From positions 18,915 through 82,914 of the IMG/VR virus record IMGVR_UViG_3300043313_002348: a stretch of 64,000 nt of DNA; one strand, written 5' to 3'. The position numbers and the translations under genes are program-made. Below, in pieces: positions 31,617-46,392 of this stretch (positions within the stretch are counted from its first letter, which is position 1; each line of letters starts with the position of its first letter). The notes beneath the pieces were generated by a model. That model did no database searches, was not told the DNA's origin, and worked only from the letters and a program-made list of their open reading frames with translations. Origin of the DNA: a virus.

Positions 31617-31633
31617 AACCGAGGAAGGTCAAG

Positions 31634-32209
31634 ATGACCACCACCACCCAGCACGTGGCACCCACCGAGAAGCAGCTTAACTTCCTCTACGCGCTCGCGG
31701 GTGACCGCGTCGCGACGTCGCTGGGTACCTGTGGCGAGGAGCGGATCGAGAACGTCGGCGTGTGGGTCGAGAACACCTCTCCCTCCCACTCCGAGGTCTC
31801 CCACCGCATCGACTGGCTTCGCCGGCAACCGAAGGACACCGCGAGTGTCGACGCCCAACCGGCCCACACCTCGAGCGACACCGTCGCGGTCACCACCCCG
31901 GGTGTGTTCGAACTCGACGGCGAGGTCTACGTCGTTAAGCCCAACCAGGCCAAGACTCGGCTGTACGCGAAGCGCGTCGTGGAGATCACCGGTGACCGGC
32001 TGACCGAGGCCGACACCGTCGTCAAGATCGAGTTGGAGTACGCACCCGGCGTGATCTACAAGCTGACCGAGGCCCACCGCATGCCGCTGGCGCGCGCGGA
32101 GGAACTGACCGCGCGCTACAAGAAGTGCATCGTCTGCGGACGCGGGCTGAAGGCTGCCACGTCAGTCAAGCAGGGCATCGGCCCGGTCTGCGTCAAGTAC
32201 TTCCGCTGA
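31634..32209 (+). CDS. DUF6011-like zinc-finger protein
   Basis: PTEKQLNFL N-terminus; CIVCGRGL..TSVKQGIGPVC C-terminus. Confidence 0.7.
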   Translation: MTTTTQHVAPTEKQLNFLYALAGDRVATSLGTCGEERIENVGVWVENTSPSHSEVSHRIDWLRRQPKDTASVDAQPAHTSSDTVAVTTPGVFELDGEVYVVKPNQAKTRLYAKRVVEITGDRLTEADTVVKIELEYAPGVIYKLTEAHRMPLARAEELTARYKKCIVCGRGLKAATSVKQGIGPVCVKYFR

Positions 32210-32224
32210 CCGAGAGAATCTTGA

Positions 32225-32292
32225 GAGAACCTGGGTCTGCGTGTAGCCGCGGACCTAGGTTCTTGCTAGAATCGTAGTAACAGGAACGAGGA
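32225..32292 (+). promoter_or_regulatory. terminator hairpin overlapping a cassette promoter
   Basis: AGAACCTGGGTCTGCG/CGCGGACCTAGGTTCT stem; TAGCCG-17-TAGAAT; CAGGAACGAGGAGG. Confidence 0.7.
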
Positions 32293-32301
32293 GGACCTCA
32301 G

Positions 32302-32688
32302 ATGAGGCTTAAGTATCGCAGGCAGGGTGAGGGTAGTTTCGCCGCGTACTTCGCGTACGACGAGACCCGCCAGTACGCGATCGTTCGTCACGATGCGCGA
32401 CGCAGCAACGCTGGGTGGACCCTGCGGATCCGCACGTCGGTCGAGACCTGCGGTGTGAAACACGCGATCGACCAACCGACCCTTCACACATATATAACTC
32501 GGACACGCGCTGACGCGCGTGACGTCGCGCAGCGCTACCACGACCTCGGCGACGACTACCAGCCGAGTGAGCACGGCTACGCGAGCCGGTTCACGTTCGC
32601 GGTGCAAGCACACGACACCGCCACTACCGCGAAGCTTCGCGCCGAGGTCGACGCGCTCCGCGCCGAGGTCAACTCCAACAGGTCGTGA
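32302..32688 (+). CDS. hypothetical protein
   Basis: Promoter and RBS upstream. Confidence 0.6.
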   Translation: MRLKYRRQGEGSFAAYFAYDETRQYAIVRHDARRSNAGWTLRIRTSVETCGVKHAIDQPTLHTYITRTRADARDVAQRYHDLGDDYQPSEHGYASRFTFAVQAHDTATTAKLRAEVDALRAEVNSNRS

Positions 32689-32709
32689 CCACCACGACGT
32701 GGAAACCCG

Positions 32710-32756
32710 TTGCGGGTGTAGGCCATACGTGATATAGTGAACGTAGCAGGAACGAA
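32710..32756 (+). promoter_or_regulatory. cassette promoter
   Basis: TTGCGG-17-TATAGT; CAGGAACGAA. Confidence 0.7.
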
Positions 32757-32781
32757 GTGAAGCAAAATTCCAGGAGGAACG

Positions 32782-33210
32782 ATGACACACGACTTTAAGA
32801 TCAACGACACCGTCCGCATCCTCGACTCGCACACACGAACCCCGGACACCGGCAGGTTCACCGGCGTCGCGACCGTCGTGAAGGTCAACGCCGTGAACCT
32901 CAAGATCAACCTGAACGGCGTACTCGTCACCGTTTCTCCGGAACTCTTGATCCACGTGGACGAGCAGCCGGTGAACGTCGACGACATGATCACCGTCGCG
33001 GACGTCGGCAAGCTCGCGTACGTGCGAGGAGGCAGTGGGTCGAAGTGGACCTACGGACCCAACACGCTGTTCGTGATCATGAACGTTCACGACCGCATAA
33101 AGGTCGTGAAGCTGGGTGGCGACGGTGGCCGGACGTGGACCGTTCCGCGGCATCACGTGACGGTCGCGCCGCTGGAGTCCTTGAACATCGCGGTGAGTCG
33201 GAACGCCTAA
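32782..33210 (+). CDS. hypothetical protein, possibly tandem SH3/KOW-like
   Basis: FKINDTVRI..VVKVN; beta-rich; RBS. Confidence 0.55.
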   Translation: MTHDFKINDTVRILDSHTRTPDTGRFTGVATVVKVNAVNLKINLNGVLVTVSPELLIHVDEQPVNVDDMITVADVGKLAYVRGGSGSKWTYGPNTLFVIMNVHDRIKVVKLGGDGGRTWTVPRHHVTVAPLESLNIAVSRNA

Positions 33211-33263
33211 ATCTGAACTCATTCCTAAGATCCACTACGCACCCTCGAGAGGAGGGACGGTTC

Positions 33264-33614
33264 ATGACGAGTGTACACAACCCGGTCCGCGAACGTGCCT
33301 ACACCCACCCGTATAACTGGCGTCACCGCGCACGCTGCCGCGACGAGCGCTATGGGGGTGAGGGAGTTGACCCTGAGCTGTTCTTCCCCGTGAGCTACGA
33401 GGGTGCGTGGGCCGAGGCGCGGGTGGCGGAGGCCAAGGCGTTCTGCCGTGGGTGTCCCGTGATCGCCGACTGCCTGCGGTGGGCGATCGTTACTGGGCAG
33501 GACGAGGGCGTGTGGGGTGTGACGACCCCGGACGAGCGGCGCGCGCTGCGCGTCGCGCCTCGAGATCGACGTCGGCCTCGCGAGCGGTTCGTTGATCCTG
33601 ACAACCCACCATAG
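33264..33614 (+). CDS. whiB: WhiB-family Fe-S transcription factor
   Basis: WRHRARC..DPELFFP..AKAFCRGCPVIADCLRWAI..GVWG..ERR. Confidence 0.9.
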   Translation: MTSVHNPVRERAYTHPYNWRHRARCRDERYGGEGVDPELFFPVSYEGAWAEARVAEAKAFCRGCPVIADCLRWAIVTGQDEGVWGVTTPDERRALRVAPRDRRRPRERFVDPDNPP

Positions 33615-33618
33615 ATCC

Positions 33619-33651
33619 ACGACCCACGTACGACATCCGTACGTGGGTCGT
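33619..33651 (+). terminator. hairpin terminator
   Basis: CGACCCACGTACG/CGTACGTGGGTCG stem directly after the whiB stop. Confidence 0.6.
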
Positions 33652-33747
33652 CGGGTCTTCGTGGTACGTTGGCTACGACACATCGCGAACTCTCCGTGGC
33701 GGAGGTCTCAGGATCACGAAGTTTCCCAAGATTCTTCGGTAAACCTG

Positions 33748-33803
33748 TTGCTCGGTGTCGTGATATGAGATAGTATGGTCTAACTAGGAACGAAACGAGG
33801 AGG
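33748..33803 (+). promoter_or_regulatory. cassette promoter
   Basis: TTGCTC-17-TAGTAT; TAGGAACGAAACGAGGAGG. Confidence 0.7.
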
Positions 33804-33809
33804 AAGACG

Positions 33810-34205
33810 ATGCAGGTTGACTTGTCACCCGAGGCGATCTATCAGATCTCCACCGCTCTGGTGAACCGCGGCGACCACCGCAACCTGAAGTCCGAGTGGG
33901 CCGACACGGCGACGCGGTTCATCGAGCTTGAGAAGTTGACGCGCGACGCGCGCCTCGGCACCACGGACAACCTCACGATCTACGTGGTGGCGCGCGACAC
34001 GACGGTCGACGGTCAAGTGATCTACGACAGCTACCTCGGCTACGTCTGCACCGCGCACAACGAGGACGAGGCACGTAAGTTGGGTCTCGACCTCGACGGT
34101 GACCAAAGGCCTGACGTCTGGCTCCGCGACACCACGTCGGTGAAGGCGATCGGCTTCGGCGCCGGTCCCGTTCGGATCATCCGCACCGACGGTAACTTCT
34201 CATAA
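33810..34205 (+). CDS. hypothetical protein
   Basis: Promoter and RBS upstream. Confidence 0.6.
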   Translation: MQVDLSPEAIYQISTALVNRGDHRNLKSEWADTATRFIELEKLTRDARLGTTDNLTIYVVARDTTVDGQVIYDSYLGYVCTAHNEDEARKLGLDLDGDQRPDVWLRDTTSVKAIGFGAGPVRIIRTDGNFS

Positions 34206-34244
34206 CGAGAAGATCCGTAATGTATCACCCATGACAACCGAAAG

Positions 34245-34763
34245 GTGACTGTGATCACATCCAGAACACGCCGATTCTTACTACTGCTGACGGCCCTACT
34301 CGCGTTGTTACTGCCGACTGGCTTGAGCCACGTCGCCATCGCGGCGCCGGCTCCGCACTCCGTCGCCAACATCGTGGAAACCACCGTGCACAGGTGCGAC
34401 GCGACTGGCGGCCACTGCGCCCGCATGCACATCGTGGTCCAGGTTCAGGACGGCGCGCAGATGCGCACCGTGGCGTTCGTCGCGTGTTACGGCGCGACTG
34501 GCGACTTCCCCTGCGCCCACGTCGGTGGTAACGCGTGGCTGAACTGCACCACGCTGAACGGTACCGACTGCTCCACCAACGGCGCGCCGGCCAGTTGCAC
34601 CGGGAACTGCCCGCTGAGCTTCGGCATGCTGACCGGTTGGTACCGGCTGCCGGTGTCCAGTCAGCGGTACTCCGGCGCAGCGTCGATCGTGTTCACCACG
34701 GGCGCGGCCGGCGGTGGCTCGAACTGGGGGCTTGCTGGTGTCACCCGGACGTTCGGGTTCTAA
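34245..34763 (+). CDS. secreted Cys-rich protein (paralog of 28388-28939)
   Basis: Signal peptide (RTRRFLLLLTALLALL..AIA); RCDATGGHCAR; FTTGAAGGG..WG. Confidence 0.7.
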   Translation: MTVITSRTRRFLLLLTALLALLLPTGLSHVAIAAPAPHSVANIVETTVHRCDATGGHCARMHIVVQVQDGAQMRTVAFVACYGATGDFPCAHVGGNAWLNCTTLNGTDCSTNGAPASCTGNCPLSFGMLTGWYRLPVSSQRYSGAASIVFTTGAAGGGSNWGLAGVTRTFGF

Positions 34764-34791
34764 CGTCTGACCAAGAAAAAAAAATCATGAG

Positions 34792-34858
34792 AGTATGAGA
34801 CCCGGTTGGTTGACCGGGTCTCATACTTATGCTACGATGAGAACTACCAGGAACGAGG
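34792..34858 (+). promoter_or_regulatory. hairpin-overlapped cassette promoter
   Basis: AGTATGAGACCCGGT/ACCGGGTCTCATACT inverted repeat over TTGACC; -17-TACGAT; CAGGAACGAGG. Confidence 0.75.
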
Positions 34859-34867
34859 GAGAACACG

Positions 34868-34981
34868 ATGATCGTCTACGAAGATCAGCGCGGTGAAACC
34901 GAGCCCTGCGAGGCTGGCACCATCGGTTGCTGCGTTAACCACGTCAAGAGCCCGACCGGTACGTCGTGTGAGACATGGTGA
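34868..34981 (+). CDS. 37-aa Cys-rich peptide
   Basis: MIVYEDQRGETEPCEAGTIGCCVNH..SCETW; promoter and RBS. Confidence 0.55.
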   Translation: MIVYEDQRGETEPCEAGTIGCCVNHVKSPTGTSCETW

Positions 34982-35205
34982 TAGTGATGATCAGGGTTGT
35001 GAGTGGTAACTTCACCGAAACACAACTGATCAACATCACCGAGTTGGCCACCGACGGTCACGTTAAGCGGGGGAAGAATCACTTCTACCTGACACCCGAC
35101 GGTAACCTATCGTGGGTTACGGACCGACGGTACCGCGAGGGAGACTACGACCACCCACGGGTACTCAACGGTAACGTCAAGCTCGGTGTTGTGAGGGTGA
35201 AGTGA
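34975..35205 (+). CDS. hypothetical protein
   Basis: Overlaps both neighbours. Confidence 0.5.
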   Translation: MVIVMIRVVSGNFTETQLINITELATDGHVKRGKNHFYLTPDGNLSWVTDRRYREGDYDHPRVLNGNVKLGVVRVK

Positions 35206-35669
35206 CGATCAGCGAGCACTGCGCGCGCGGCCTACACGGGTTCTGCCGAGGTGATCACACGACGTGCTCCTGCGGGGAGTGTCACTTCGTCTGCGCGCGC
35301 TGCGCACAGCCGTGTCGGACGTTGAACGGACCTGACCACGACATCTGCGCACCGTGTGCGCGTCGGGACGCCCAGGCGTCGGGTGTCGCGCGCCGCGCGT
35401 CACAGGCTTGTGACCACTGTGGTGCCGGCGGAGCCATCCGAGACCCACGTACGCGGAAGAACGTTTACCTGTGCAGTGGCTGTCACGCCGGCGACCTATC
35501 GAGGCTTCCGGGTGTCGCGGTGGACCTCAACGCGGCGTGCGCAGGGCACGACGTCAGCGATCCCTTGCATGCCTGGTACCAGGTTAAGGGTCGTAAGCAC
35601 ATCTGTAGTCGTTGCACGATGACGTGGTACGTGGACTCACGTGAGGTTGCGGCGCGCACAGGATCCTGA
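35202..35669 (+). CDS. multi-CxxC zinc-finger protein
   Basis: Six or more CxxC pairs. Confidence 0.55.
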   Translation: MTISEHCARGLHGFCRGDHTTCSCGECHFVCARCAQPCRTLNGPDHDICAPCARRDAQASGVARRASQACDHCGAGGAIRDPRTRKNVYLCSGCHAGDLSRLPGVAVDLNAACAGHDVSDPLHAWYQVKGRKHICSRCTMTWYVDSREVAARTGS

Positions 35670-35701
35670 TATAGTGAACGTAGGAACAAACGACGAGGAG
35701 G
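35647..35701 (+). promoter_or_regulatory. cassette promoter
   Basis: TTGCGG-17-TATAGT; TAGGAACAAACGACGAGGAGG. Confidence 0.7.
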
Positions 35702-35707
35702 ACGAAG

Positions 35708-35971
35708 TTGATGATCACCGTAGGTGACGTCACGTGGACCACTGAACTGGACCCGCAGAGCGCGGCCGCGCTGTCGACCCGACACGTCGCCGTGGAGCTG
35801 CAGGAGCATGAGTCGAGCCAGGGTGGGTGGCCGACCCTCAAGCTGATCGGCGGTACGCGCGACGATGTGCGTGCGTGGTTGCTCACGAACTGGGACAACG
35901 ACGAAGAGACCGTGGATCACGTGCTCGAGGGTGCCACACCTACGCCCGATGTGCGGATTCTCACCCAGTAG
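35708..35971 (+). CDS. hypothetical protein
   Basis: Promoter and RBS; GGWP motif. Confidence 0.6.
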   Translation: MMITVGDVTWTTELDPQSAAALSTRHVAVELQEHESSQGGWPTLKLIGGTRDDVRAWLLTNWDNDEETVDHVLEGATPTPDVRILTQ

Positions 35972-35974
35972 AGC

Positions 35975-36046
35975 GGTAGTTACGTCTGAAGTCCGAGGGT
36001 AGTTACGTCTGAAGTCCGAGGTCGTGGACCTCGGGCTTTCGACGTA
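35975..36046 (+). repeat. 23-bp tandem duplication forming the arm of a terminator hairpin
   Basis: GGTAGTTACGTCTGAAGTCCGAG x2, followed by the complementary CCTCGGGCTTTCGACGTA. Confidence 0.75.
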
Positions 36047-36167
36047 CGAGAACACGTCTGACCTCCTCCCGGAACACACGACGTCGTGACCTGGTCGTAC
36101 GCGTCACAGCATCCGCGTGAGATGTCGAGGGAGGCGCTCAGAGTCACAAGATTTTTCCATCAACCCG

Positions 36168-36219
36168 TTGCGTCAACATCCTACTTAGGATAGTATGGTC
36201 TCAACAGGAACGAACGAGG
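36168..36219 (+). promoter_or_regulatory. cassette promoter
   Basis: TTGCGT-17-TAGTAT; CAGGAACGAACGAGG. Confidence 0.7.
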
Positions 36220-36233
36220 CGAAGGACGAGACG

Positions 36234-36491
36234 ATGACCAACACCGGCGTTCTGCACGAGGTCGAGGTTCACGACCGCATCGCGACCATACGGCACCTGC
36301 ACCCCGAGTCCGGGATCGAGATCGGTCGCGACGAAACGATCCTGGACACCACTGCCGGCGCGTGCCCGCTGTGGCTGCAGGTGGCGACGTGGTTGCAGAC
36401 CTTCGACCTGTGCCTGGTACTCCCGGACGAGGTCTTTCCGCGGCTGACTGCGGGGAACACCTGGACCGCCGAGGCTCGCGAGCTTCGGTAA
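36234..36491 (+). CDS. hypothetical protein
   Basis: ATG after the promoter and RBS. Confidence 0.55.
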   Translation: MTNTGVLHEVEVHDRIATIRHLHPESGIEIGRDETILDTTAGACPLWLQVATWLQTFDLCLVLPDEVFPRLTAGNTWTAEARELR

Positions 36492-36871
36492 GGTAGTGTG
36501 CACACGTAAGACAAGATCCACCATCAGGAACCGTAGGAGGAAGCAGTGAATCACGTAACCGATCTCACGGACGAGCAGCTTCAGCAGCGCTACGTCCCGG
36601 CCGCGTTCTTGCCCGCCGACCGACGCGCACGCCAGCGTCTCGCGGCGCGCAACGCCCAGGTCACTGCCGAGCTGCGACGTCGCGGCTACGTCCCTGTGGG
36701 GGTGTGACGTGGCGCAGAGCTCCAGCCAGCCGGCACCTGGGCACCCAGGTAACTGCGCCTGCAACGGTACCGGCCTCGTGATCGCGGGAACGCGCTACGA
36801 GCCGCAGCCCAACACCACTACTCCCGGCGTGCGTCGCGTGCGTCGGACCTGCAACCGAGAAGGAAGCTGAC

Positions 36872-37174
36872 GTGGCTGACAGCTTGGAACCCACCCCGTT
36901 GGTCCTAGGTCACTCTGTCGTGAACATCGTGTTCGCTCGCGTGCTGCTGGCCGTCGCGACGCCCATCGCATCCGACGCGGAGCTGACACCCGCGGAGCGT
37001 ATCCACGTGGAGATCGAGAACGAACTCCGGTGGTTGAGCCGCTACAACCCTGACCTTCACGACCTGGTCGCGAACCCACTGCGTAACGTCAAGTCACTTG
37101 TCAGCCGGGAGCAGCAAGACCCGTTACGGGACTCGATGTGTGAATCTAAGCATCGTTCCATCGCAGAAGACTAA
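36872..37174 (+). CDS. hypothetical protein
   Basis: AAGGA RBS. Confidence 0.5.
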   Translation: MADSLEPTPLVLGHSVVNIVFARVLLAVATPIASDAELTPAERIHVEIENELRWLSRYNPDLHDLVANPLRNVKSLVSREQQDPLRDSMCESKHRSIAED

Positions 37175-37188
37175 GAAGGAGGACGACG

Positions 37189-37359
37189 ATGGTAAGTCGA
37201 AGAACTACGCTGGCTCGCGCGGCGTACCAGGCTGCGCAGCGTCAGGCGGACCAGGCGCGGACGCCGGCGCAGGTCCGGAAAGCTAACCGGGCGATCGTGA
37301 CCGCGGCCGCGCAGCTTCCAGGCCGCGACTTCCTGTGGCGCCCGTTACGGCGTCGGTAG
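37189..37359 (+). CDS. small basic Ala/Arg-rich protein
   Basis: Read by hand: MVSRRTTLARAAYQAAQRQ...; AAGGAGG RBS; followed by a hairpin. Confidence 0.5.
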   Translation: MVSRRTTLARAAYQAAQRQADQARTPAQVRKANRAIVTAAAQLPGRDFLWRPLRRR

Positions 37360-37374
37360 CATCGAAGTGACAGA

Positions 37375-37458
37375 GAAGGGGTGATCACGAAAGTGGTCAC
37401 CCCCTTCCGTTGACGTCGTGTCATATCTATGCTATGATGGTACCATCAGGAACGAACG
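37375..37458 (+). promoter_or_regulatory. terminator hairpin plus cassette promoter
   Basis: GAAGGGGTGATCAC-GAAA-GTGGTCACCCCCTTC; TTGACG-17-TATGAT; CAGGAACGAACG. Confidence 0.75.
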
Positions 37459-37473
37459 ACCGAGGAGGATCCG

Positions 37474-37890
37474 GTGACGGCTTTCACGCTGAACCCGAAG
37501 GTACTCGACAAGATCCGCAACGCCCCGGTCCCCACGGTCGAGCAGGTACGCGCCGCGCGCGTCGCCGTCGCCAACTCCCCGCGTCACGGTGGTGACCGGC
37601 GCGGAAGCTCGACCAGCCGCCGCCGGCGCACCGAGAAGCTCCTTCACGAGTTTGGCGACGGGACCACCTGCCCGTGCTCATACTGCCACGTCGCGCTCAC
37701 CGCGGAGACGCTGACCCAGGACAAGATCTACACGACGAACGAAGGTGGCGGGTACCGCTACGAGAACCTCATCCCGGCGTGCATGGACTGCAACCGCCGA
37801 CGTCTCGACACCGCCATCTGGGAGATCGTCTCCGAGGTCGTCGTGGCCGCCGAGGCGATCACCGTCGAGGCGATCACCGTTGCGGCGTAG
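37474..37890 (+). CDS. HNH endonuclease-like protein
   Basis: CSYC...QDKI..GGGY..ENLIPACMDCNRRR; the first His of the HNH motif is replaced. Confidence 0.75.
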   Translation: MTAFTLNPKVLDKIRNAPVPTVEQVRAARVAVANSPRHGGDRRGSSTSRRRRTEKLLHEFGDGTTCPCSYCHVALTAETLTQDKIYTTNEGGGYRYENLIPACMDCNRRRLDTAIWEIVSEVVVAAEAITVEAITVAA

Positions 37891-37932
37891 ACGTCGTCAC
37901 CCAAACTTGATATGATGATACCGATCAGGAAC
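37888..37932 (+). promoter_or_regulatory. cassette promoter
   Basis: TAGACG-17-TATGAT; CAGGAACAC. Confidence 0.65.
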
Positions 37933-37957
37933 ACATGAAGTGAGGAGGAACGTGCGA

Positions 37958-38419
37958 ATGTTCGAGGTGAAGAACGCGGCGGGAGTCGTCGTCCGGAGTC
38001 TGGCCACCGGAAACGTGCTGCTGGTCAGAAACCGACGCCGAGGTGTCTGGGAGTACCCAGGTGGTCTGGTGCACGTCGGGGAGACGCCGAGGTGGTGTGC
38101 TATGCGTGAGCTTCGCGAGGAGACCGGACTTCAACTTCGGATCAAGTGGATACTCGGAGTTGACCGAGGCCAGCGACACCTCTACCTGTGGCCACTGAAC
38201 TACCAGACGTACGCGGCGTGGGTTCCGGACGAGCTTGCTTGCGCGATCACGTTGAGCGCTGAACACTCGGCGTTCCGCTGGTTTACCGTCGAGGAGGCGC
38301 GTACCCACCCACTGGTGTGGGAGCGTGTGAGGGAGCGATTCGTCACGTACCTGAACGACGATCACTGGCCTACGGTGGGTGGCTGGAGAACTCCCAGTCC
38401 CGCGCGAGGTGAGGACTGA
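37958..38419 (+). CDS. NUDIX hydrolase
   Basis: WEYPGGLVHVGETPRWCAMRELREETGL Nudix box; SAEHSAFRWF. Confidence 0.9.
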   Translation: MFEVKNAAGVVVRSLATGNVLLVRNRRRGVWEYPGGLVHVGETPRWCAMRELREETGLQLRIKWILGVDRGQRHLYLWPLNYQTYAAWVPDELACAITLSAEHSAFRWFTVEEARTHPLVWERVRERFVTYLNDDHWPTVGGWRTPSPARGED

Positions 38420-38985
38420 TGTCAAGACGGGGTGCTAGTGTAACACTTCTCGTGGCGCTGACCGTACTCTTCACGTCCGCGGCGAAGGGATGTGAAAAGC
38501 CTAGGGACACGCAACCGAAGAAGTCCAGCGTGGTATGCCACTCGACGTCAAGTGTCAAGTGTTGGCCGACCTTGACGGTCTACGTCGACGACCGGACGGG
38601 TGACGCGTGGCCAGTCCGCGAGCAGGTGCAGAAGTGGGATCGATTGCTGAAACTTCACTTCCTGTACGGCCCGTGTCACCGTGGTGCTGGCTGCGTGAAG
38701 GTTGTCGAGCGCAAGATGGGCGACACGGGAGTTGGCGCTACCACAACCTACGCGTGCGGTAGCTGTGGAATCATCGACGACACCGTCGTGGTCGCCGTCA
38801 ACACGACGTACGGCGACTCACCGGCGGAAGTGAGGAAGCGGACCATCTGTCACGAACTCGGTCACGCCGCCGGGAAAACTGCCCACAACGCGGCCACGTG
38901 TATGGAACCGGACGTTTCGATCCCTAACGGATCACCGAATCCGTCATCCAAGGACGCCGCCGTGATCAACGCGGTGTACGCGTAA
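38419..38985 (+). CDS. lipoprotein with a matrixin-like zinc metallopeptidase domain
   Basis: Signal and lipobox-like AAKGC; HELGHAAG..H; CM Met-turn; P...D. Confidence 0.7.
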   Translation: MSRRGASVTLLVALTVLFTSAAKGCEKPRDTQPKKSSVVCHSTSSVKCWPTLTVYVDDRTGDAWPVREQVQKWDRLLKLHFLYGPCHRGAGCVKVVERKMGDTGVGATTTYACGSCGIIDDTVVVAVNTTYGDSPAEVRKRTICHELGHAAGKTAHNAATCMEPDVSIPNGSPNPSSKDAAVINAVYA

Positions 38986-39145
38986 GGTAAGAAAGATGTG
39001 AAGATGGTCAAAAGGACGAAGAAGGTGATCGTCACCGTGACCCGCCAGGACGGCAAGCAGACCATAAGCGTCGTCGACGACAAGACCGCCCGTCACCTCG
39101 AGAACCAGTGCCTGAGCGGACACGGCGACATCGCGATCGTGAACG

Positions 39146-39217
39146 TCGAACCCGCCAAGTAGGCGGGTTTGACAAAGTCTTCTCATTATGCTATGATGGT
39201 ACCATCAGGAACGAACG
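39146..39217 (+). promoter_or_regulatory. hairpin-overlapped cassette promoter
   Basis: GTCGAACCCGCC/GGCGGGTTTGAC stem containing TTGACA; -17-TATGAT; 31 nt identical to 37428-37458. Confidence 0.75.
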
Positions 39218-39318
39218 GCGCGAGGAACGGAGATCGAGGAAGATGATCCGCCAGCCACGCCCACAGCGTAGGTTGTGCCGTTCTACGGGAACACACGTTT
39301 CAAGGAGGAAAGAGAACC

Positions 39319-40807: not shown

Positions 40808-41286
40808 TCTCCGCGGAGGAGGACGTGGAGACCTCCGAGACGGACGACAGAGATGATCCGGTCGCGTGGATGAGTCGTCCGGCTCCCTTCGGTCCGGCGT
40901 GTCGCGCCGCGCCCGCGGGTCTGTTCTTCACCCCAGACTACTTCTACGCCGACGAGGTAAAACCCGGTGAGCGTCCCGTGCGCGACTCACGTGGTCATCT
41001 CATCGAGTACGACGAGGACGGCGAGCGGATCTACCCACTCCCCGAGGAGTCGGTGTTCTGCCGGGCGTGTCCGGTTCACACCGAGTGTCTCGCCTACGGG
41101 ATCACGACCGACCAGCCGGGTGTGTGGGGTGGCATGACGCGGTACCAGCGTCGGCAGCTCGGTCGCCGCCGCACGCGCGTGTCGTGTCCATCTTGCGCGG
41201 GTAGGTTCATCGTCGTGGAAGGATCACACCAGCTCTGCCTCGCCTGCGGGGTGTCGTGGACGTACGTGAGAAGTGGTGTAAGATGA
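40804..41286 (+). CDS. WhiB-like protein with an insertion and a C-terminal zinc ribbon
   Basis: ACR..LFF..(insert)..FCRACPVHTECLAYG..GVWGG..QRR; CPSC..CLAC. Confidence 0.8.
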   Translation: MISAEEDVETSETDDRDDPVAWMSRPAPFGPACRAAPAGLFFTPDYFYADEVKPGERPVRDSRGHLIEYDEDGERIYPLPEESVFCRACPVHTECLAYGITTDQPGVWGGMTRYQRRQLGRRRTRVSCPSCAGRFIVVEGSHQLCLACGVSWTYVRSGVR

Positions 41287-41597
41287 CGAACATCCCGTCT
41301 CACACCGCGTCCGACGAGGAGAGGTGGATACTCGAGGTCACGTTCGACCCACCTAATGTGCAGGCACACGCCAATCCTGAACTTACGTTTCCTTATGATG
41401 AGGTAAGTCGATTTGTGACGTACCTCTCCGAGTACTGGAGTCTTCTTCCCGAGGAACTCCAAGAGTTTGTGCGGTGGGATAACGTGAAGTTAACCGCGAC
41501 GGCCGAACTGATCGACAACTTCGTCGAACCTCTTCGCTTTCTCATGATGCATATGGTGCCCCAGGAGTTCACTTTAAGGCGTGCTGGTGCACGTTAG
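41283..41597 (+). CDS. hypothetical protein
   Basis: ATG overlapping the upstream stop region. Confidence 0.5.
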   Translation: MTNIPSHTASDEERWILEVTFDPPNVQAHANPELTFPYDEVSRFVTYLSEYWSLLPEELQEFVRWDNVKLTATAELIDNFVEPLRFLMMHMVPQEFTLRRAGAR

Positions 41598-41607
41598 GTA
41601 GTGAGTT

Positions 41608-41636
41608 AAGACACCGCGGGTGGCTCCCGCTACGAT
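41608..41636 (+). promoter_or_regulatory. putative promoter of the Tas/array unit
   Basis: AAGACA-17-TACGAT upstream of the AGGAAGGGAG RBS. Confidence 0.45.
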
Positions 41637-41685
41637 CGCGGTATAGGAGAGAAATCCGAAGGAACTAGGAAGGGAGAACGTTAAG

Positions 41686-42723
41686 ATGACCGAGATCGAC
41701 TTTGACCCGATCGCGCGACTCAGCCGCGAGGCGCGCGCGATGGCGGTCGGCATCGACCGCGACGCGGCCAGGTACCTCGTGGACACGTACTACAGGTGGC
41801 AGCGGCAGCGGATCGCGTTGGGAAACCAGGTGCGGACGCTGGAGAACTCCGGACAACCTACGGGAGTGCTGGAGCACTTCGGCGACCAGACCGCGACACT
41901 CGAGCGGCAGATGATCTCCAGCTTGCTGGCGTGGGTCGAAGATCGACCCGAGGGAAAGTGGGCGCTCGGCCAACTGGGGATCGGACCCGTTCTCGCCGCC
42001 GGCCTGTCTGCACACATTGACATCCGTAGGTCGCCGACCGTCGGCCACATCTGGCGGTTCGCCGGACTCGACCCGACACTCACGTGGCTGGGTCGCGACG
42101 CCGCTACCGCTCTCGTCGCGGAGATGTTCGGAACGCAGCGATCGTTCACGCCGGAGGACGTCGCCACGCTCGCCGAGCGGGTGAACCGCAAGGCCGAGAA
42201 CCTCCTCAAGATCATACGCGACGCACCCAGCGACGAGGACGAGGACGTCGCGCTGACCGAGGACGAAGACGAGGTGTTCCCGCGCAGCCGCGTGATCGCG
42301 ACCCTCGCCCGGCGCCCGTACAACGCCAGTCTCAAGGTGTTGTGCTGGAAGATCGGCGACTCGTTCGTGAAGATCTCGAACCGACCAACCGACCAGCAAG
42401 ACCACTACGGTCGTGTGTACCGCGAGCGGAAGGCGCAGGAGGTGGCGCGTAACGAGGCCGGCGCGTTCGCCACGACGGCCACTCAGACCCTCGCGACGAG
42501 GCGCATTACGGACGTCGCGCTGCGACGTACGTACGAGGAGGGTAAGCTCCCTCCGGGGCGTCTGGACCTGCGCGCGCGGCGGGTAGCGGTCAAGCTGTTC
42601 CTGGCACACTGGCACGACGTCGCATATCGCGCCGAGTTCAACACGCCGCCACCGGCGCCGTACCCGATCGCGCATCTCGGGCACACTCACTACATCCCGC
42701 CGTTCGCACCTAAGCAGGGGTAA
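41686..42723 (+). CDS. TIGR-associated Nop-domain protein (TasA-like; IS110-related, no nuclease domain)
   Basis: Coiled coil YYRWQRQRIALGNQ; GQLGIGPVLAAGL..HIWRFAGLDP; PYNASLKVLCWKIGDSFVK; YGRVYRERK; ARRVAVKLFLAHW; no DEDD RuvC or HNH domain; array directly downstream. Confidence 0.85.
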   Translation: MTEIDFDPIARLSREARAMAVGIDRDAARYLVDTYYRWQRQRIALGNQVRTLENSGQPTGVLEHFGDQTATLERQMISSLLAWVEDRPEGKWALGQLGIGPVLAAGLSAHIDIRRSPTVGHIWRFAGLDPTLTWLGRDAATALVAEMFGTQRSFTPEDVATLAERVNRKAENLLKIIRDAPSDEDEDVALTEDEDEVFPRSRVIATLARRPYNASLKVLCWKIGDSFVKISNRPTDQQDHYGRVYRERKAQEVARNEAGAFATTATQTLATRRITDVALRRTYEEGKLPPGRLDLRARRVAVKLFLAHWHDVAYRAEFNTPPPAPYPIAHLGHTHYIPPFAPKQG

Positions 42724-42726
42724 CCG

Positions 42727-44162
42727 GTCGAGCCACGAGAACCGCGATAGTCTAGTGAGACATAAGAGTCGACGAGAACCTAGTTAGGGATCGAGTCGTA
42801 CGTGTAGAGAGAACCGGTTGATAAAGAACGAGTCGTAGTTGTAGAGGAAACTTTTCCATCGACGAACGAGCCAGCCGATCAGTGAGAACCGTGATGCCCA
42901 ATCGAGACGCATTTGATGGTGAGAACCTTATCTTGAGATCGAACCGAAGTGGTTAAGTGAGACAAAGAGCCCGACGACGGTAACGTAATGATAGATCGAG
43001 ACGTGGAACAAGATTGTAACGCTTGTGGTTCGGATCGAGACGAAGAGTTTGACTGTGACGTACAACAGGGATCGAGACGAAGAGTTAGATGGTAACGCAA
43101 CTCACGAGATCGAGATGAGAGTAAAGAGAGATCTGTACAAGCTGATCGAGATGAGCTACTTGACAGTTCCACTTTAGTCGATCGAGTCAAATCGAGACGA
43201 AGTACAAGATGGTAACACGCGCAAGTGATCGAGACGTTTGACCCGGACCGTAACGCGATCATGAGATCGAGACCGAAGAGACCGACTAGGTACCCACTAC
43301 CATGAGTGAATCGAGAGATAAGTTAACATCGTTTATGCCGAATGAAGACCTTGTCCCCATCACTAGTGAACCGCACGTAGATGATCGAGGCAATGCGGAA
43401 GAGAGAACTGATCAGAGCGATCGAGACGACATCAGTAAGAGAACCGTACCAGATGATGATCGAGGCGAAGCAAACGGCGAAAGAACCGTATCTCATGATC
43501 GAGACGATGAAGATAAGAGAACCAAAGTATCAGGTCGAGACACATAGGAATAAGATAGAACCGACGTATCCGATCGAGACGATTCTAGTAAGAGAACCGA
43601 ACGACGCGATCGAGACACACGTGAGAAAGAGAATCGACAGATGAGATCGAGACGAAGCTCTCGAAAGTGAACCTAAGAACTTGATCGAGACGGACGTAAA
43701 CTTGGGGAGAGCACCGGAGTAGGGATCGAGACGAAGGGATCGAAGAAGATTCGATAAACGAGATCGAATCCGAGGTAAAAAACGTGAGACGACCGTCATA
43801 AGAGAACCGTACTAAGTGATCGAGCGCTAATGAAGTAAGTGAGCCGGAGATACAGATCGAGACACTTCTTCGGAGCGAGATGGAATGGAGCTAGTGAGCC
43901 GACACTCCAGATCGAGTCGTACAGAGTGAGAGTTACCACGTCTGAATGAGCGAGTCGCAAGTACCTGAGAAATACCGGAAAAGTAAACGAACCGTAGCAC
44001 GAGTAGGCATTCATAACCCCTGTGAGTGAGTCAAAGTCAACGGGTGTCAAGAGAGCCAACTACCCGAACGTGGACGTGGATACGAACCGAAGATCACAAG
44101 AGTACCGATCCGCACGAGTGAGTCGTGGATCTCACGAGAGAACCGAACACCTCAAACGAGAT
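42727..44162 (+). ncRNA. TIGR-like dual-repeat guide-RNA array (~35-38 units of 36-39 nt)
   Basis: GATCGAGAC-like repeats start at 42789, 42826, 42864, 42900, 42937, 42994, 43033, 43070, 43108, 43144, 43180, 43227, 43265, 43383, 43419, 43458, 43497, 43533, 43572, 43608, 43645, 43683, 43724, 43762, 43818, 43855, 43910, 43948; a second repeat (AGAGAACC or GGTAAC) lies midway; variable ~9-11 nt spacers. Confidence 0.88.
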
Positions 44163-44205
44163 CGCGTGAAACCTGCGCCAGGACATCTGGCGTGGGTTCT
44201 CGCGC
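44163..44205 (+). terminator. hairpin closing the array
   Basis: CGCGTGAAACCTGCGCCAG-GACAT-CTGGCGTGGGTTCTCGCG. Confidence 0.6.
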
Positions 44206-44288
44206 ATTCTAAGACGACGTCGTGATTCAACGTCGTGCCGCGTGACGGTCACTCCGCTGAAGTGAGCTCAAGTGGCCGATGTTTCTTG

Positions 44289-44346
44289 TTGCACTGTGAT
44301 GTGACTTATGCTAGTCTAGTCGTAGCAGGTAAGGAACGAGGAAGGG
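44289..44346 (+). promoter_or_regulatory. cassette promoter
   Basis: TTGCAC-17-TAGTCT (TG extension); CAGGTAAGGAACGAGGAAGG. Confidence 0.65.
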
Positions 44347-44353
44347 AAGTACG

Positions 44354-44533
44354 ATGAACCCGATCACCGTCCAGGTCTACCGAAGCCTCTCCGTCACCGA
44401 CCTCGGCACCCAGATCTTGCAGATCGAGCGTCAGAACGCACAGGATGTCAGGCGAGGTCGTCGGGTGTCCGCCCACTCCGCCCAGGTGCTCAGCACCGCG
44501 AAGTCGATCTACCGCGAGCGCACCGTGCGCTGA
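44354..44533 (+). CDS. 59-aa hypothetical protein
   Basis: Read by hand: MNPITVQVYRSLSVTDLG...; promoter and RBS. Confidence 0.55.
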   Translation: MNPITVQVYRSLSVTDLGTQILQIERQNAQDVRRGRRVSAHSAQVLSTAKSIYRERTVR

Positions 44534-44619
44534 CCACCGCCGCCACTAACAGAAGAAGGTAGGTCATCTGAGGAGGTGGCCCATCTTCCGCACATCGAGG
44601 TCCTCGACGCGGTTGTGAC

Positions 44620-46392
44620 GTGCTCGGCCACACCTATCGTACGCTAGTGGACGACATATCCGTCACACCTCACGTGAGGACTCACATCGTGGCTCGACCC
44701 GTCCGCGTCGTCTCAGGCTGGACCCTCGGTGGGGGCGGCCGCGTGCGTGAACTGATTACGCTGCCGTGGTGGCTGATCGTGTTAGGACGCGTACTGCGGT
44801 GGTTCGGCGTCAGCCACCCCCTCCTAACGGCGGACGGCGTTGGCGTCGTGTACGTGTGGATCAAGACGGGAAGCCTGGCGCTCGCGCTGGCGACGGTAGC
44901 TGTGGTTGACGTGGCGTTGCTAGCCTGCCTGATCGCGGTGCTACTGCGCCTCACCGGCGCGAGTCTGAGCGCGATCATAGCGGGCATGTCAAGGCGACGT
45001 CAACTACGGAGACAGTGGCCGGACGTAGCGGCGGCCGCCGGCCTGGTACGCACCGTCAGGGGCGACCAGGCCTACCCGCCGCTCAGGCGGGTACGTGTGA
45101 CGCAGACCGGCCTCAGGGCCGTGGCGTACACGGGACGAGTTGGTAAGACGGTGGAGAAGGCGGTGCTCGGGCGGGGTGCGATGGCGGCTGTAATGGGATG
45201 TCGAGAGGTCTACGTTCGCCAGGGAAAACACTCAGGAATTACATCACTAGAATTTGCCTGGGGTGATCCTCTTAAGAGAACACTCCGACTCCGTGATCTT
45301 CCCGAACCCACCAGCAGAGCACATCTTACCTTCGGTATCACCGAAGATCAGGAACCCGTCTCCATCGAACGTGACCTCAGCACACTCATCGTAGGACTTA
45401 CCGGCTCGGGAAAGTCAAGTACGGTGTGGGCCATGCTGGCCGCTCTCGTGAAGAGTGGTATTCCCTACCGTCTCGTGGTAGTTGACCCGAAGGGCGGCAT
45501 GGAGATGGCCGCACTCAAGGACGTAGCCTACAAGTACGCGGTGATGCCCGAGGACATCGCCCAGGTACTAGGTGATACCGTCACCGAGATGCGTGAGAGA
45601 ATGAACACACTCGGTGACCGTAAGACCCGTAAGTATAAGCCTACTCGCGAGCACCCGTTCACCCTGCTCGTCGTCGACGAGTTCCTCAGTCTTACGATGT
45701 TCATGAACTCGAAGCTGAAGAGTCGTGTCGAGCAGTCCGTTGGCCTACTCCTCACACAGGGTCGCGCGCCCGGGTACGCCGGCCTGTTCTGCTCACAGGG
45801 GTCGCAGGTCGACGCACTCGGCCGAATCCGCACGTTCATCCCCCAGCGCCTGTGCCACGCCACAGACGACGTGGAAACCACGGTGGCTGCGCTCGGCTCC
45901 GACGCGAGGCACTCGGCGCGCTGCGACAAGCTTAACCTGCGAACGCAGCAGGGGGTGGGCTTCATGCAGGTCGACGGCCAGCGAGGTTTCACTCGATTCC
46001 GCTCGGTGTACGTCACCGACCGCGAGACAGTGATGATCGCGAACGGGCAGCTTCCACCGGACGCGTACACAGGTCGTGGGTTCTTCGTGCCAAGCCGCCG
46101 CGACGCGCGCCGCGCGCGCCGGGAGCGGGTAGCCGTGTACCGCTGGGTGAGTCACGACGAGGAGGTGCTCTACATCGGGATCAGTAGCGACCCAGAGCGT
46201 CGCCTCGGCCAGCACATCTCCGATAAGCCGTGGGTGGAGGAGGCGGCCCGCGTCGAGCTCGTGGAGTGGTGCGACTCGCGCGAGGACGCGCTGATCCTCG
46301 AGGAAGACCTCATCCGCTCGGAGCAGCCTAGGTACAACATCGTTCACAACATGGACAACCCCGGCCGGGTCGCCTACGAGCTGGAGGCGTAA
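44620..46392 (+). CDS. FtsK/SpoIIIE (TraB-like) DNA translocase fused to a C-terminal GIY-YIG nuclease
   Basis: N-terminal TM segments; GLTGSGKS, VDPKGG, LVVDEF, QGRAPG; C-term AVYRW..VLYIGISSDPERRLGQH..EEDLIRSEQPRYN. Confidence 0.85.
   Translation: MLGHTYRTLVDDISVTPHVRTHIVARPVRVVSGWTLGGGGRVRELITLPWWLIVLGRVLRWFGVSHPLLTADGVGVVYVWIKTGSLALALATVAVVDVALLACLIAVLLRLTGASLSAIIAGMSRRRQLRRQWPDVAAAAGLVRTVRGDQAYPPLRRVRVTQTGLRAVAYTGRVGKTVEKAVLGRGAMAAVMGCREVYVRQGKHSGITSLEFAWGDPLKRTLRLRDLPEPTSRAHLTFGITEDQEPVSIERDLSTLIVGLTGSGKSSTVWAMLAALVKSGIPYRLVVVDPKGGMEMAALKDVAYKYAVMPEDIAQVLGDTVTEMRERMNTLGDRKTRKYKPTREHPFTLLVVDEFLSLTMFMNSKLKSRVEQSVGLLLTQGRAPGYAGLFCSQGSQVDALGRIRTFIPQRLCHATDDVETTVAALGSDARHSARCDKLNLRTQQGVGFMQVDGQRGFTRFRSVYVTDRETVMIANGQLPPDAYTGRGFFVPSRRDARRARRERVAVYRWVSHDEEVLYIGISSDPERRLGQHISDKPWVEEAARVELVEWCDSREDALILEEDLIRSEQPRYNIVHNMDNPGRVAYELEA

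What the first reader, a model, noticed from the sequence alone, without database searches (positions are those of the whole stretch)
41608..44205. Phage-encoded TIGR-Tas-like RNA-guided system: nuclease-less Nop/IS110-type protein plus a ~1.4 kb dual-repeat array
Seen: a 345-aa ORF with IS110/Nop motifs (GIGPVLAAGL, WRFAGLDP, YNASLK, ARRVAVKLF). An A/G-rich non-coding tract starts within a few nt of its stop codon. In it GATCGAGAC recurs every 36-39 nt, with a second repeat (A)GAGAACC midway, e.g. 43572 GATCGAGAC-GATTCTAGTA-AGAGAACC-GAACGACGC-GATCGAGAC. A candidate promoter precedes the gene and a hairpin closes the array. Established: TIGR arrays have ~36-nt units with edge and loop repeats and two ~9-nt spacers, and are processed into tigRNAs that guide Nop-domain Tas proteins to DNA without a PAM; TasA lacks a nuclease. 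Inference: this is an actinophage TasA-like system carrying about 35-38 guides. Its repeats differ from the CCA/TG-box consensus I recall, so it may be a distinct subtype. With no nuclease, it may act by binding or repression against competing phages, plasmids or host genes.
Basis: partly seen in the sequence, partly recalled or inferred. Interest (0 to 1): 0.95.

Follow-up and report, generated by a model that had tools for sequence, protein, structure and literature searches.

The report
Soil actinophage TIGR-TasA guide-RNA system
An uncultured soil phage carries a nuclease-free RNA-guided DNA-binding protein (TasA) followed by a long array of two-part guide RNAs, a real but already described kind of system (TIGR-Tas, 2025) whose natural targets remain unknown.

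Summary
A 345-aa gene (41686-42723) is followed 2 nt later by a 1.44-kb A/G-rich non-coding tract. In it GATCGAGAC recurs every 36-41 nt, with a second repeat midway. A strong hairpin closes the tract.

The protein passes NCBI's curated TIGR-Tas model (163 bits, cut-off 100). Its predicted fold matches solved TasH and TasR best (Z 17-19) and covers only their coiled-coil and Nop parts. It is therefore a nuclease-less TasA. It keeps a Tyr/His pair spaced as the pre-tigRNA-cutting residues of SpTasH.

Relatives in 55 of 80 viral loci carry similar periodic arrays on the tas strand, and one has the same two repeats. So this is a new member of the published dual-repeat TIGR-TasA kind, not a new subtype.

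Its own oddities:
- About 23 well-formed units plus 10-15 degenerate ones.
- Unit length is not uniform, unlike most relatives.
- Two loop-repeat types occur in blocks.
- The protein has a roughly 65-residue "wedge" insertion.

No guide matches the phage's own genome or 123 related loci, so targets are unknown. This scan had already noted TIGR-Tas loci in at least 49 other genomes.

The parts
41608..41636 (+). Candidate promoter: -35-like AAGACA (41608-41613), 17-nt spacer, -10-like TACGAT (41631-41636) inside GCTACGAT
   Evidence: Read. GCTACGAT is identical to the extended -10 of the phage's own promoter cassette near 34848. The site scores 8 of 12 and was not reported by the consensus scan. 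Function is inferred.
41668..41676 (+). Ribosome-binding site GGAAGGGAG, 9 nt before the ATG
   Evidence: Sequence. A similar purine-rich leader precedes the next gene at 44354.
41686..42723 (+). tasA: 345-aa nuclease-less Tas protein. Coiled coil about residues 25-85, Nop C-terminal domain, wedge insertion about residues 129-210, C-terminal Tyr326/His333 loop.
42726..42993 (+). TIGR array block 1: degenerate leader-proximal units. Edges GGTCGAGCC, GATCGAGTC, GAACGAGTC and the like; loop GAGAACC.
   Evidence: Four well-formed units lie at 42789-42936.
42994..43308 (+). TIGR array block 2: edge GATCGAGAC, loop (G/T)GTAAC or GTGAC
43309..43947 (+). TIGR array block 3: the best-kept units. Edge GATCGAGAC, loop (A)AGAGAACC, spacer B mostly 9 nt.
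43948..44164 (+). Degenerate tail of the array, ending in a truncated edge repeat GATCG (44160-44164)
   Evidence: GAGAGCC, GAGTACC and GAGAACC half-repeats are still present. No unit-model hit lies beyond 43918.
44164..44205 (+). Closing hairpin: about an 18-bp stem, a likely terminator without a U-tract
   Evidence: The consensus terminator scan, which needs a T run, does not call it.

Best explanation
This is a dual-repeat TIGR-TasA system of a complete 82.9-kb soil phage that probably infects an actinobacterium.

Shown here:
- The gene encodes a Tas-family protein with a coiled coil and a Nop domain and no nuclease domain.
- It is directly followed, on the same strand, by an array of about 23 well-formed and 10-15 degenerate units.
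- Each unit reads edge repeat GATCGAGAC(G), spacer A, loop repeat ((A)AGAGAACC or GTAAC), then a 9-nt spacer B.
- The array ends in a truncated edge repeat and a hairpin.

Inferred from the published family:
- tasA and the array are transcribed together from a promoter upstream of tasA.
- A TasA dimer binds each unit through the box-like ends of the repeats.
- The conserved C-terminal Tyr326/His333 loop cuts the precursor inside the edge repeats, giving guides of about 36-41 nt.
- Each guide pairs spacer A with one DNA strand and spacer B with the other, over about 18 bp in all.
- Because there is no nuclease, binding blocks transcription or replication of the target rather than cutting it.
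- The targets are not in the phage itself, so they are most likely host genes or competing mobile elements.
For: Protein:
- NCBIfam NF052498.1 TIGR_Tas_endo (equivalog): E 7.5e-48, 163.3 bits, cut-off 100, residues 28-313.
- AF2 model: pLDDT 91, pTM 0.88.
- The Foldseek top 10 are all TasH or TasR chains.
- VIA-align: TasH 9vzx_A Z 18.8 (rmsd 4.5, 228 aligned, chain 65-309). TasR 9mty_B Z 17.3 (rmsd 2.5, 194 aligned, chain 111-322). IS621 Z 13.3. The match therefore starts after the HNH or RuvC part of the solved proteins.
- Profile of 50 relatives: TasR E 1.6e-21, TasH 1.7e-9, IS621 3.8e-4.
- Tyr326 is Y in 46 of 50 relatives and His333 is H in 50 of 50. They are 7 residues apart, like the catalytic Y289/H296 of SpTasH (passages of PMC13421893).

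Array:
- A sequence model of 23 units finds 19 of its 21 window hits (E<=1) at 42757-43918 on the + strand.
- The array ends in a truncated edge plus a hairpin, as Faure et al. describe for TIGR arrays (section 4).

Family context:
- All 79 of 79 unit-model hits in 28 of 83 related loci lie on the tas strand.
- 55 of 80 viral and 19 of 40 genome loci have a 7-mer with at least 5 spacings of 30-48 nt, against 0 in shuffles.
- L033 has the same edge and loop repeats in strict 36-nt units.

Published function: TasA binds DNA and represses transcription under tigRNA guidance (Xu et al. preprint, section 12).

Sequence check: two soil DNA runs carry parts of the array with 0 differences.
Against: - No RNA evidence exists for the array. 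The only RNA-library contig covers 41662-41862, the 5' end of tasA, and could be contaminating DNA.
- No consensus promoter was found.
- Unit length is irregular. The commonest length, 37 nt, holds for only 7 of 23 units. In 36 of 50 related arrays at least 80% of spacings share one length, usually 36. The Xu preprint ties Tyr/His processing to a fixed 36-nt unit (passage). Part of the array may therefore be poorly processed or decaying.
- About a third of the tract is too degenerate for the unit model.
- The equivalence of Tyr326/His333 with SpTasH Y289/H296 rests on motif spacing and position, not on a residue-level alignment. A C-terminal query found nothing.
- No target was found.
Confidence: 0.85

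Rival explanations
1. The locus is a decaying relic of a TIGR-TasA system. The protein may still fold, but much of the array has drifted beyond use and the system no longer serves the phage.
For: - Unit lengths are heterogeneous, 36-41 nt, whereas most relatives keep one length.
- There are irregular stretches of 44-74 nt and a 212-nt tail without unit-model hits.
- Several edge repeats carry 1-2 mismatches.
- No targets were found.
Against: - The gene is intact and carries all 32 columns that are invariant in 50 relatives, including His333.
- 13 edge repeats are exact.
- Spacer B is 9 nt in 15 of 23 units.
- Degenerate repeats at array boundaries are described as normal for TIGR arrays (Xu preprint, section 5).
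Confidence: 0.12
2. The repeats act at the DNA level, as iterons or centromere-like binding sites for a phage or host protein, and their position beside the Tas-like gene is incidental.
For: Direct repeats of 9 nt at regular spacing in an AT-richer tract resemble iteron or partition sites. There is no direct RNA evidence for the array.
Against: - The two-repeat, two-spacer unit matches TIGR anatomy.
- 79 of 79 unit-model hits in relatives lie on the tas strand, next to tas genes.
- Periodic arrays accompany tas homologues in 55 of 80 viral loci.
- No ParB-like or replication-initiator gene lies beside the array.
Confidence: 0.02
3. The gene is a remnant of an IS110-family transposase, as PHROGs and some sources label it, or the tract encodes a repetitive protein.
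For: - phrog_4285 is labelled 'transposase' (E 3.4e-38).
- Pfam Transposase_20 gives a weak hit: E 0.0013, 19.5 bits, below its cut-off of 21.3.
- One relative is named 'transposase' by NCBI.
Against: - No DEDD/RuvC domain is present. The protein aligns only to residues 125-320 of IS621, and Pfam reports no other family.
- Tas proteins match far better than IS621.
- The tract has no + strand ORF longer than 87 aa.
- 14 of the 23 unit lengths are not multiples of 3, so no repeat protein can be read in one frame.
Confidence: 0.01

Closest known systems
Dual-repeat TIGR-TasA systems (for example the FpTIGR locus of Flavonifractor plautii; Faure et al., Science 2025, PMC12045711, sections read)
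   Same: - A solo Nop-domain Tas protein.
- An adjacent array of alternating edge and loop repeats with two short spacers per unit of about 36 nt.
- The array ends in a truncated edge repeat and a hairpin.
- It is phage-borne.
   Different: - The array is long: 23 or more units, against 'most often 5 to 15'.
- Unit length varies from 36 to 41 nt within one locus.
- Two loop-repeat types occur in blocks.
- The repeat ends read (A/C)C followed by G rather than CCA.
- The wedge region is about 65 residues longer than in TasR or TasH.
SpTasH of Salicola phage CGphi29 (PDB 9vzx, 9w03, 21kl; PMC13421893, passages)
   Same: Best structural match: Z 18.8 over its residues 65-309. It has the same coiled coil and Nop domain. 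Its C-terminal Tyr...His pair is 7 residues apart and cuts pre-tigRNA.
   Different: SpTasH has an N-terminal HNH nuclease and cleaves DNA. The protein here starts at the coiled coil. Sequence identity is only 15-19%.
TaTasR (PDB 9mty)
   Same: Profile E 1.6e-21. Z 17.3, rmsd 2.5, 25% identity over its residues 111-322. The conserved GIGPV...AGL, N..LK...DSF.K and C-terminal H motifs align.
   Different: TaTasR has an N-terminal RuvC nuclease. It has 15 residues where this protein has about 80, between the AGL and PYNA motifs. It has Trp where this protein has Tyr326.
MbTasA and PlTasA (Xu et al. preprint 10.64898/2026.09.09.750476; Guan et al. preprint 10.64898/2026.08.11.744272)
   Same: Both are nuclease-less TasA proteins shown to bind DNA under RNA guidance. 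MbTasA represses transcription. This is the likely mode of action here.
   Different: PlTasA uses a stem-loop array, and stem-loop Tas proteins lack the Tyr/His loop. I did not see which array type MbTasA uses. Here the array is dual-repeat and the Tyr/His loop is present.
IS110/IS621 bridge-RNA recombinases (PDB 8wt6)
   Same: They share the RNA-binding Nop-like domain: Z 13.3, profile E 3.8e-4, and a weak Pfam Transposase_20 hit.
   Different: This protein has no DEDD catalytic domain and no single bridge RNA. It has an array of guides instead. It is not a transposase.

Membership tests
TIGR-Tas (Tas protein family) | Protein belongs to the Tas clade of Nop-domain proteins | tested here: met
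   - NCBIfam NF052498.1: 163.3 bits against a cut-off of 100.
- Profile to TasR: E 1.6e-21.
- Foldseek top 10 are all Tas chains.
- VIA-align Z 17.3-18.8.
TasA subtype (nuclease-less) | No HNH or RuvC domain ahead of the coiled coil | tested here: met
   Model residues 21-24 onward align to TasH from residue 64-66 and to TasR from residue 111. Only about 20 residues precede the coiled coil. Pfam reports no nuclease family.
Dual-repeat TIGR array | Two distinct alternating short repeats separated by two spacers of about 9 nt, in tandem units of about 36 nt beside tas | tested here: met
   - Edge GATCGAGAC and loop GAGAACC or GTAAC.
- 23 units of 36-41 nt.
- Spacer B is 9 nt in 15 of 23 units.
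- Deviation: unit length is not uniform.
Dual-repeat TIGR array | Array co-oriented with tas, ending in a truncated edge repeat and a terminator hairpin | tested here: met
   - All 23 edge matches are on the + strand.
- The final GATCG lies at 44160-44164, followed by the hairpin at 44164-44205.
- 79 of 79 hits in relatives are on the tas strand.
Dual-repeat TIGR array | [quoted passage not shown] | tested here: inconclusive
   Edge and loop share a GAGA core and end in AC or CC, usually followed by G. Relatives end in CC(A/G). I could not assign box C or box D positions without a structure or the published alignments, because supplements are closed.
Dual-repeat TIGR-Tas | C-terminal Tyr/His processing loop | tested here: inconclusive
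   Tyr326 (Y in 46 of 50 relatives) and His333 (H in 50 of 50) are 7 residues apart in the low-confidence C-terminal loop. This is the same spacing as SpTasH Y289/H296. No residue-level alignment to SpTasH was obtained.
TIGR-Tas | Array transcribed and processed into unit-length tigRNAs bound by Tas | not testable with these tools
   Only assembled contigs of one soil RNA library were available, and one contig covers the 5' end of tasA.
TIGR-Tas | tigRNA-guided binding of double-stranded DNA through both spacers | not testable with these tools
   No target was found in the phage genome or in 123 related loci. This needs biochemistry.
IS110-family transposase | N-terminal DEDD (RuvC-like) catalytic domain plus C-terminal Tnp domain | tested here: not met
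   Pfam reports only a sub-threshold Transposase_20 hit over residues 98-131 and no DEDD domain. The alignment to IS621 covers only its residues 125-320.

The most novel reading that the evidence does not exclude
This phage may show that dual-repeat TIGR systems are not bound to a uniform 36-nt guide. A TasA with an expanded wedge would work with guides of 36-41 nt. Their extra length sits between spacer A and the loop core. Two interchangeable loop-repeat types would also be used. Such an array would be a natural intermediate between the rigid dual-repeat form and the variable stem-loop form. It would be aimed at actinobacterial host genes or rival actinophages.
Probability: 0.2. Interest if true: 0.5.

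Novelty: new member of a known kind. Interest (0 to 1): 0.3.

Why it matters
TIGR-Tas systems were described in 2025. The natural role of the commonest, nuclease-free form (TasA) in phages is still open: the Xu preprint's discussion names host silencing, suppression of rival elements or control of the viral cycle (passage).

This locus adds a complete phage genome with a single compact tasA-plus-array operon. It also has a likely actinobacterial host range, where model hosts and large phage collections exist. That makes it a usable case for asking what such guides target.

It also documents tolerated or decaying irregularity in a dual-repeat array, and it shows that current labels would mislead annotators. 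PHROGs calls the protein a 'transposase', and NCBIfam calls it an 'endonuclease' although it has no nuclease domain.

It does not reveal a new kind of system.

Tried and rejected
Searches that found nothing:
- Tandem Repeats Finder found no array, because the units are too divergent.
- Megablast of the locus and tblastn of TasA against 50,697 deposited phage records gave no match. No cultured phage in that set has a close relative.
- Rfam: 0 matches at E<=1.
- The sigma-70 scan found 0 promoter-like sites in 41200-44700. Its one terminator-like site lies upstream at 41426.
- phmmer of the last 76 residues against PDB sequences found nothing, so I could not align Tyr326/His333 to SpTasH residue by residue.
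- ESM Atlas look-up of the wedge insertion (residues 132-212) gave only weak leads. Feature scores were at most 0.84. Small helical or HTH-like models reached TM about 0.55. No conclusion was drawn.

Target searches:
- Self-targeting: the spacers of 23 units were combined by script in four arrangements with gaps 0-4 and searched in the 82.9-kb genome outside the array. There were 0 hits with up to 1 mismatch, 1 with 2 and 13 with 3. Twenty shuffled sets gave 0-2 and 3-11.
- The same search with gaps 0-3 in 123 fetched loci gave 0 hits with up to 1 mismatch and 7 with 2. Five shuffles gave 1-9.
- Single 9-nt spacers are neither avoided nor clearly enriched in the phage genome. Observed counts were A 15 and B 26. 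Markov orders 1-4 expect 9.9-12.9 and 16.3-19.6. Eight of B's hits come from one GC-rich word.

Growth by tandem duplication: two neighbouring pairs have near-identical spacer A, but order permutations reach the observed count in 319 of 5000 trials. This is not significant.

RNA run X4 shows no contig over the array. A hole in contigs proves nothing.

Not in print, as far as I searched:
- 'TIGR-Tas' together with 'actinobacteri' gave one unrelated paper.
- 'actino' occurs 0 times in the main texts of Faure 2025 and Xu 2026.
Full report
**What the window is.** The window is bases 18915-82914 of an 82,914-bp IMG/VR virus record. The record has direct terminal repeats and is rated 100% complete. 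It encodes a DNA polymerase, a helicase, an exonuclease, a tape-measure protein and a major head protein. Upstream of the finding, with one small ORF between, lies a WhiB-type regulator (Pfam 40.6 bits, cut-off 23.6). The head protein matches 877 deposited phage records by tblastn. By the first word of the organism name these are Mycobacterium 496, Gordonia 198, Microbacterium 131, Arthrobacter 18 and Streptomyces 17, plus smaller groups. All are below 60% identity, and the 15 listed rows are at 27-34%. From established knowledge, WhiB is confined to Actinobacteria and their phages. An actinobacterial host is therefore likely but not shown. The public runs that hold the stretch are soil metagenomes.

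**Checking the observation.** The 345-aa ORF at 41686-42723 is real.
- Two bases after its stop codon begins a tract that is 34% A and 28.5% G. Its GC is 48.7% against 62.0% for the genome.
- GATCGAGAC with up to one mismatch occurs 68 times in the window. Shuffles give 36.8 +/- 5.9, and none of 100 reaches 68. Of these, 23 lie at 42789-43918, all on the + strand, and they include 13 of the 14 exact copies.
- Cutting the tract at these copies gives 23 units of 36-41 nt: 36 x5, 37 x7, 38 x6, 39 x4, 41 x1. It also leaves irregular pieces of 10, 18, 44, 46, 56, 57, 63 and 74 nt and a 212-nt degenerate tail.
- The second repeat GAGAACC is exact ten times. In the central block 42994-43273 it is replaced by (G/T)GTAAC or GTGAC.
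- In the MAFFT alignment of the 23 units, the distance from the loop core to the next edge repeat is 9 nt in 15 units and 8-10 nt in 22. The distance from the edge repeat to the loop core varies from 12 to 18 nt. The extra length therefore sits on the spacer-A and loop side.
- A sequence-only model of the 23 units finds 19 of its 21 window hits (E<=1) inside 42757-43918 on the + strand, and nothing convincing elsewhere. A motif scan of the whole 82.9-kb genome shows no second array.
- The array ends with a truncated edge repeat (GATCG at 44160) that runs into an 18-bp hairpin at 44164-44205. The 86-nt fold is -39.6 kcal/mol, z -4.86.
- The tract cannot encode a repeat protein. The longest + strand ORF is 87 aa, and 14 of the 23 unit lengths are not multiples of three.
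- Contigs of two soil DNA runs reproduce parts of the array with no differences, including an irregular part. The irregularity is therefore unlikely to be an assembly artefact, although these runs may be the source samples.

**The protein.**
- Pfam gives only a sub-threshold Transposase_20 hit, and PHROGs calls the family 'transposase'.
- NCBI's curated model NF052498.1, 'TIGR-Tas system RNA-guided endonuclease', scores 163.3 bits against a cut-off of 100.
- By sequence alone the protein reaches TasR (9mty) at E 1.6e-4 and TasH at 4.6e-4. A profile of 50 relatives reaches them at 1.6e-21 and 1.7e-9, against 3.8e-4 for IS621.
- The AlphaFold model is confident, with pLDDT 91 and pTM 0.88. Its ten best Foldseek matches in the PDB are all TasH or TasR chains.
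- VIA-align gives Z 18.8 to TasH over its residues 65-309, Z 17.3 to TasR over residues 111-322, and Z 13.3 to IS621. The match thus begins after the HNH or RuvC domain of the solved proteins.
- Only about 20 residues precede the coiled coil here. This is the TasA architecture: a solo coiled coil plus Nop domain.
- The C-terminal loop carries PP.PY326PIAHLGH333. In 50 relatives Tyr326 is Y in 46 (W in 3, F in 1) and His333 is H in all 50. SpTasH cuts pre-tigRNA with Y289 and H296, also seven residues apart in a flexible C-terminal region (PMC13421893, passages). [quoted passage not shown] I could not obtain a residue-level alignment to SpTasH. The equivalence is therefore an inference from motif, spacing and position.
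- Between the conserved AGLDP and PYNA motifs this protein has about 80 residues, whereas TasR and TasH have 15. This is the segment that the Xu preprint calls the wedge (TaTasR G210-K230; passage). Here it forms three or four short helices and an acidic disordered loop.

**Relatives.**
- The family is large: 2,210 proteins at E<=0.001 among 8,000 scored, the closest at 57% identity.
- Of 80 IMG/VR loci that encode relatives, 55 have a 7-mer with at least five successive spacings of 30-48 nt. The same holds for 19 of 40 loci from bacterial and archaeal genomes. Composition-shuffled versions give none.
- The recurrent words are GAGAACC, GAACGAGTCA, GAGCGAGCC, GTGAACC and AGTAACA.
- The unit model built from this window hits 28 of 83 related loci, 79 times at E<=0.1, and every hit is on the tas strand.
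- L033 comes from a 188-kb viral contig whose Tas protein is 36% identical. It has the same edge repeat GATCGAGAC(A) and the loop repeat G.G.G.ACC(A) in strict 36-nt units on both sides of tas. L076 has GAGCGAGCC(G) and GAGAGCACC(G). The repeats of this window are therefore ordinary for the clade and do not define a new subtype.
- None of the 40 genome hits is titled as an actinobacterium. They are Gemmatimonadota, Acidobacteriota, Chloroflexota, Proteobacteria and others.
- No deposited phage record matches TasA by tblastn.

**How it most likely works.** The published work establishes the following.
- Faure et al. [quoted passage not shown] The two spacers pair with opposite DNA strands of one target. 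TasA is the nuclease-less and commonest form, and many loci are in phages.
- The Xu et al. 2026 preprint (sections 5, 10 and 12 and passages) reports 6,685 arrays around 20,096 tas loci. It shows that MbTasA binds DNA and reversibly represses transcription in a guide-dependent way.
- The Guan et al. 2026 preprint (passages) describes TasA as a coiled-coil dimer that unwinds the target, with both spacers paired.

By homology I infer the same here. Co-transcription of tasA and the array follows from the 2-nt gap and the single closing hairpin. Cutting within the edge repeats would be done by the Tyr/His loop. Guides of 36-41 nt would be loaded on a TasA dimer, which would block the target without cleaving it.

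The promoter is uncertain. The consensus scan finds none. However, the sequence GCTACGAT at 41629-41636 is identical to the extended -10 of one of the phage's own repeated promoter cassettes. One 201-nt contig of a soil metatranscriptome library covers 41662-41862 without differences. That is at most a weak hint of expression.

**Targets.** Scripts combined the two spacers of each of the 23 well-formed units in four arrangements.
- With gaps of 0-4 nt, no match with up to one mismatch exists in the phage genome outside the array. Counts at two and three mismatches (1 and 13) are close to shuffled controls (0-2 and 3-11).
- With gaps of 0-3 nt, the 123 fetched loci likewise give none with up to one mismatch.
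- Single spacers are neither avoided nor clearly enriched in the phage genome once its oligonucleotide usage is modelled.

The guides therefore do not regulate the phage's own genes by perfect pairing. Host genes or rival elements remain the candidates. I did not search public collections, for the reasons given under Tried and rejected.

**What is unusual.**
- The array is long. Faure et al. say most arrays have 5-15 units. The Xu counts average about 16 tigRNAs per dual-repeat array (65,635 in 4,126).
- More notably, the unit length is irregular. The commonest length holds for 7 of 23 units here. Among 50 related arrays the modal spacing is 36 nt in 40, and at least 80% of spacings share the mode in 36. 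The Xu preprint describes dual-repeat systems as having a 'uniform 36-nt guide' and a 'compact NOP core' (passages).
- The wedge region is long in all 50 relatives examined: 39-93 residues align to this protein's 82. It is therefore a clade feature and does not track the irregular units.
- Either this TasA tolerates variable loop linkers, or part of the array is decaying. Sequence alone cannot decide between these.

**Verdict.** This is a genuine dual-repeat TIGR-TasA locus and a new member of a known kind. It is useful as a compact example from a probable actinophage. Its interest is modest. Earlier notes of this scan already record TIGR-Tas loci in at least 49 other genomes.

Noticed in passing
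window 25808-39219 and about 44289: A repeated promoter cassette precedes many small + strand genes. It reads TTGAC-like -35, 17 nt, extended -10 such as TATGCTATGAT, then the leader CAGGAACGAACGAG. The leader motif is exact 4 times and has 1-2 mismatches 5 more times on the + strand in 25.8-39.2 kb. The tasA upstream region shares only the GCTACGAT -10 part. The leader's GAACGAG also resembles the edge-repeat variants GAACGAGTC and GAACGAGCC at 42826 and 42864, which may be coincidence.
   Followed up: partly
window 42070-42315 (TasA residues about 129-210): This is an insertion of about 65 residues in the 'wedge' of the Nop domain, relative to TasR and TasH. It forms short helices plus an acidic disordered loop (DEDEDVALTEDEDE). 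All 50 relatives examined have a long wedge of 39-93 residues. Atlas structure leads to small HTH-like domains are weak, with TM about 0.55.
   Followed up: partly
L033:1415-8780 (IMG/VR contig of 188 kb): This is a very large TIGR array with the same edge repeat GATCGAGAC(A). It has strict 36-nt units in several sub-arrays on both sides of tas and between neighbouring genes. 128 edge-like matches fall within 9 kb.
   Followed up: partly
window 42798-43927 (spacer A positions): The first base of spacer A is G in 18 of 23 units, and six spacers begin GAAG. The edge repeat is therefore effectively 10 nt or longer, and spacer A is less variable than spacer B. Neighbouring units at 43033/43070 and 42789/42826 have spacer A differing by 1 and 2 bases. 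A permutation test of neighbour similarity is not significant: 319 of 5000.
   Followed up: yes
window 44620-46392: The gene after the array encodes an FtsK/SpoIIIE-type ATPase fused to a C-terminal GIY-YIG nuclease domain.
   Followed up: no
L085-L124 (genome contigs): The 40 cellular-genome loci with relatives of this TasA come from Gemmatimonadota, Acidobacteriota, Chloroflexota, Proteobacteria, Firmicutes, archaea and others. None is titled as an actinobacterium, although this phage looks actinobacterial.
   Followed up: no
window 28278-28352: A single tRNA-Leu (anticodon TAA) gene lies in the early region.
   Followed up: no
window 41686-42723: Current labels would mislead annotation. PHROGs phrog_4285 calls the family 'transposase'. 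NCBIfam NF052498 names it an 'endonuclease' although this member has no nuclease domain.
   Followed up: yes
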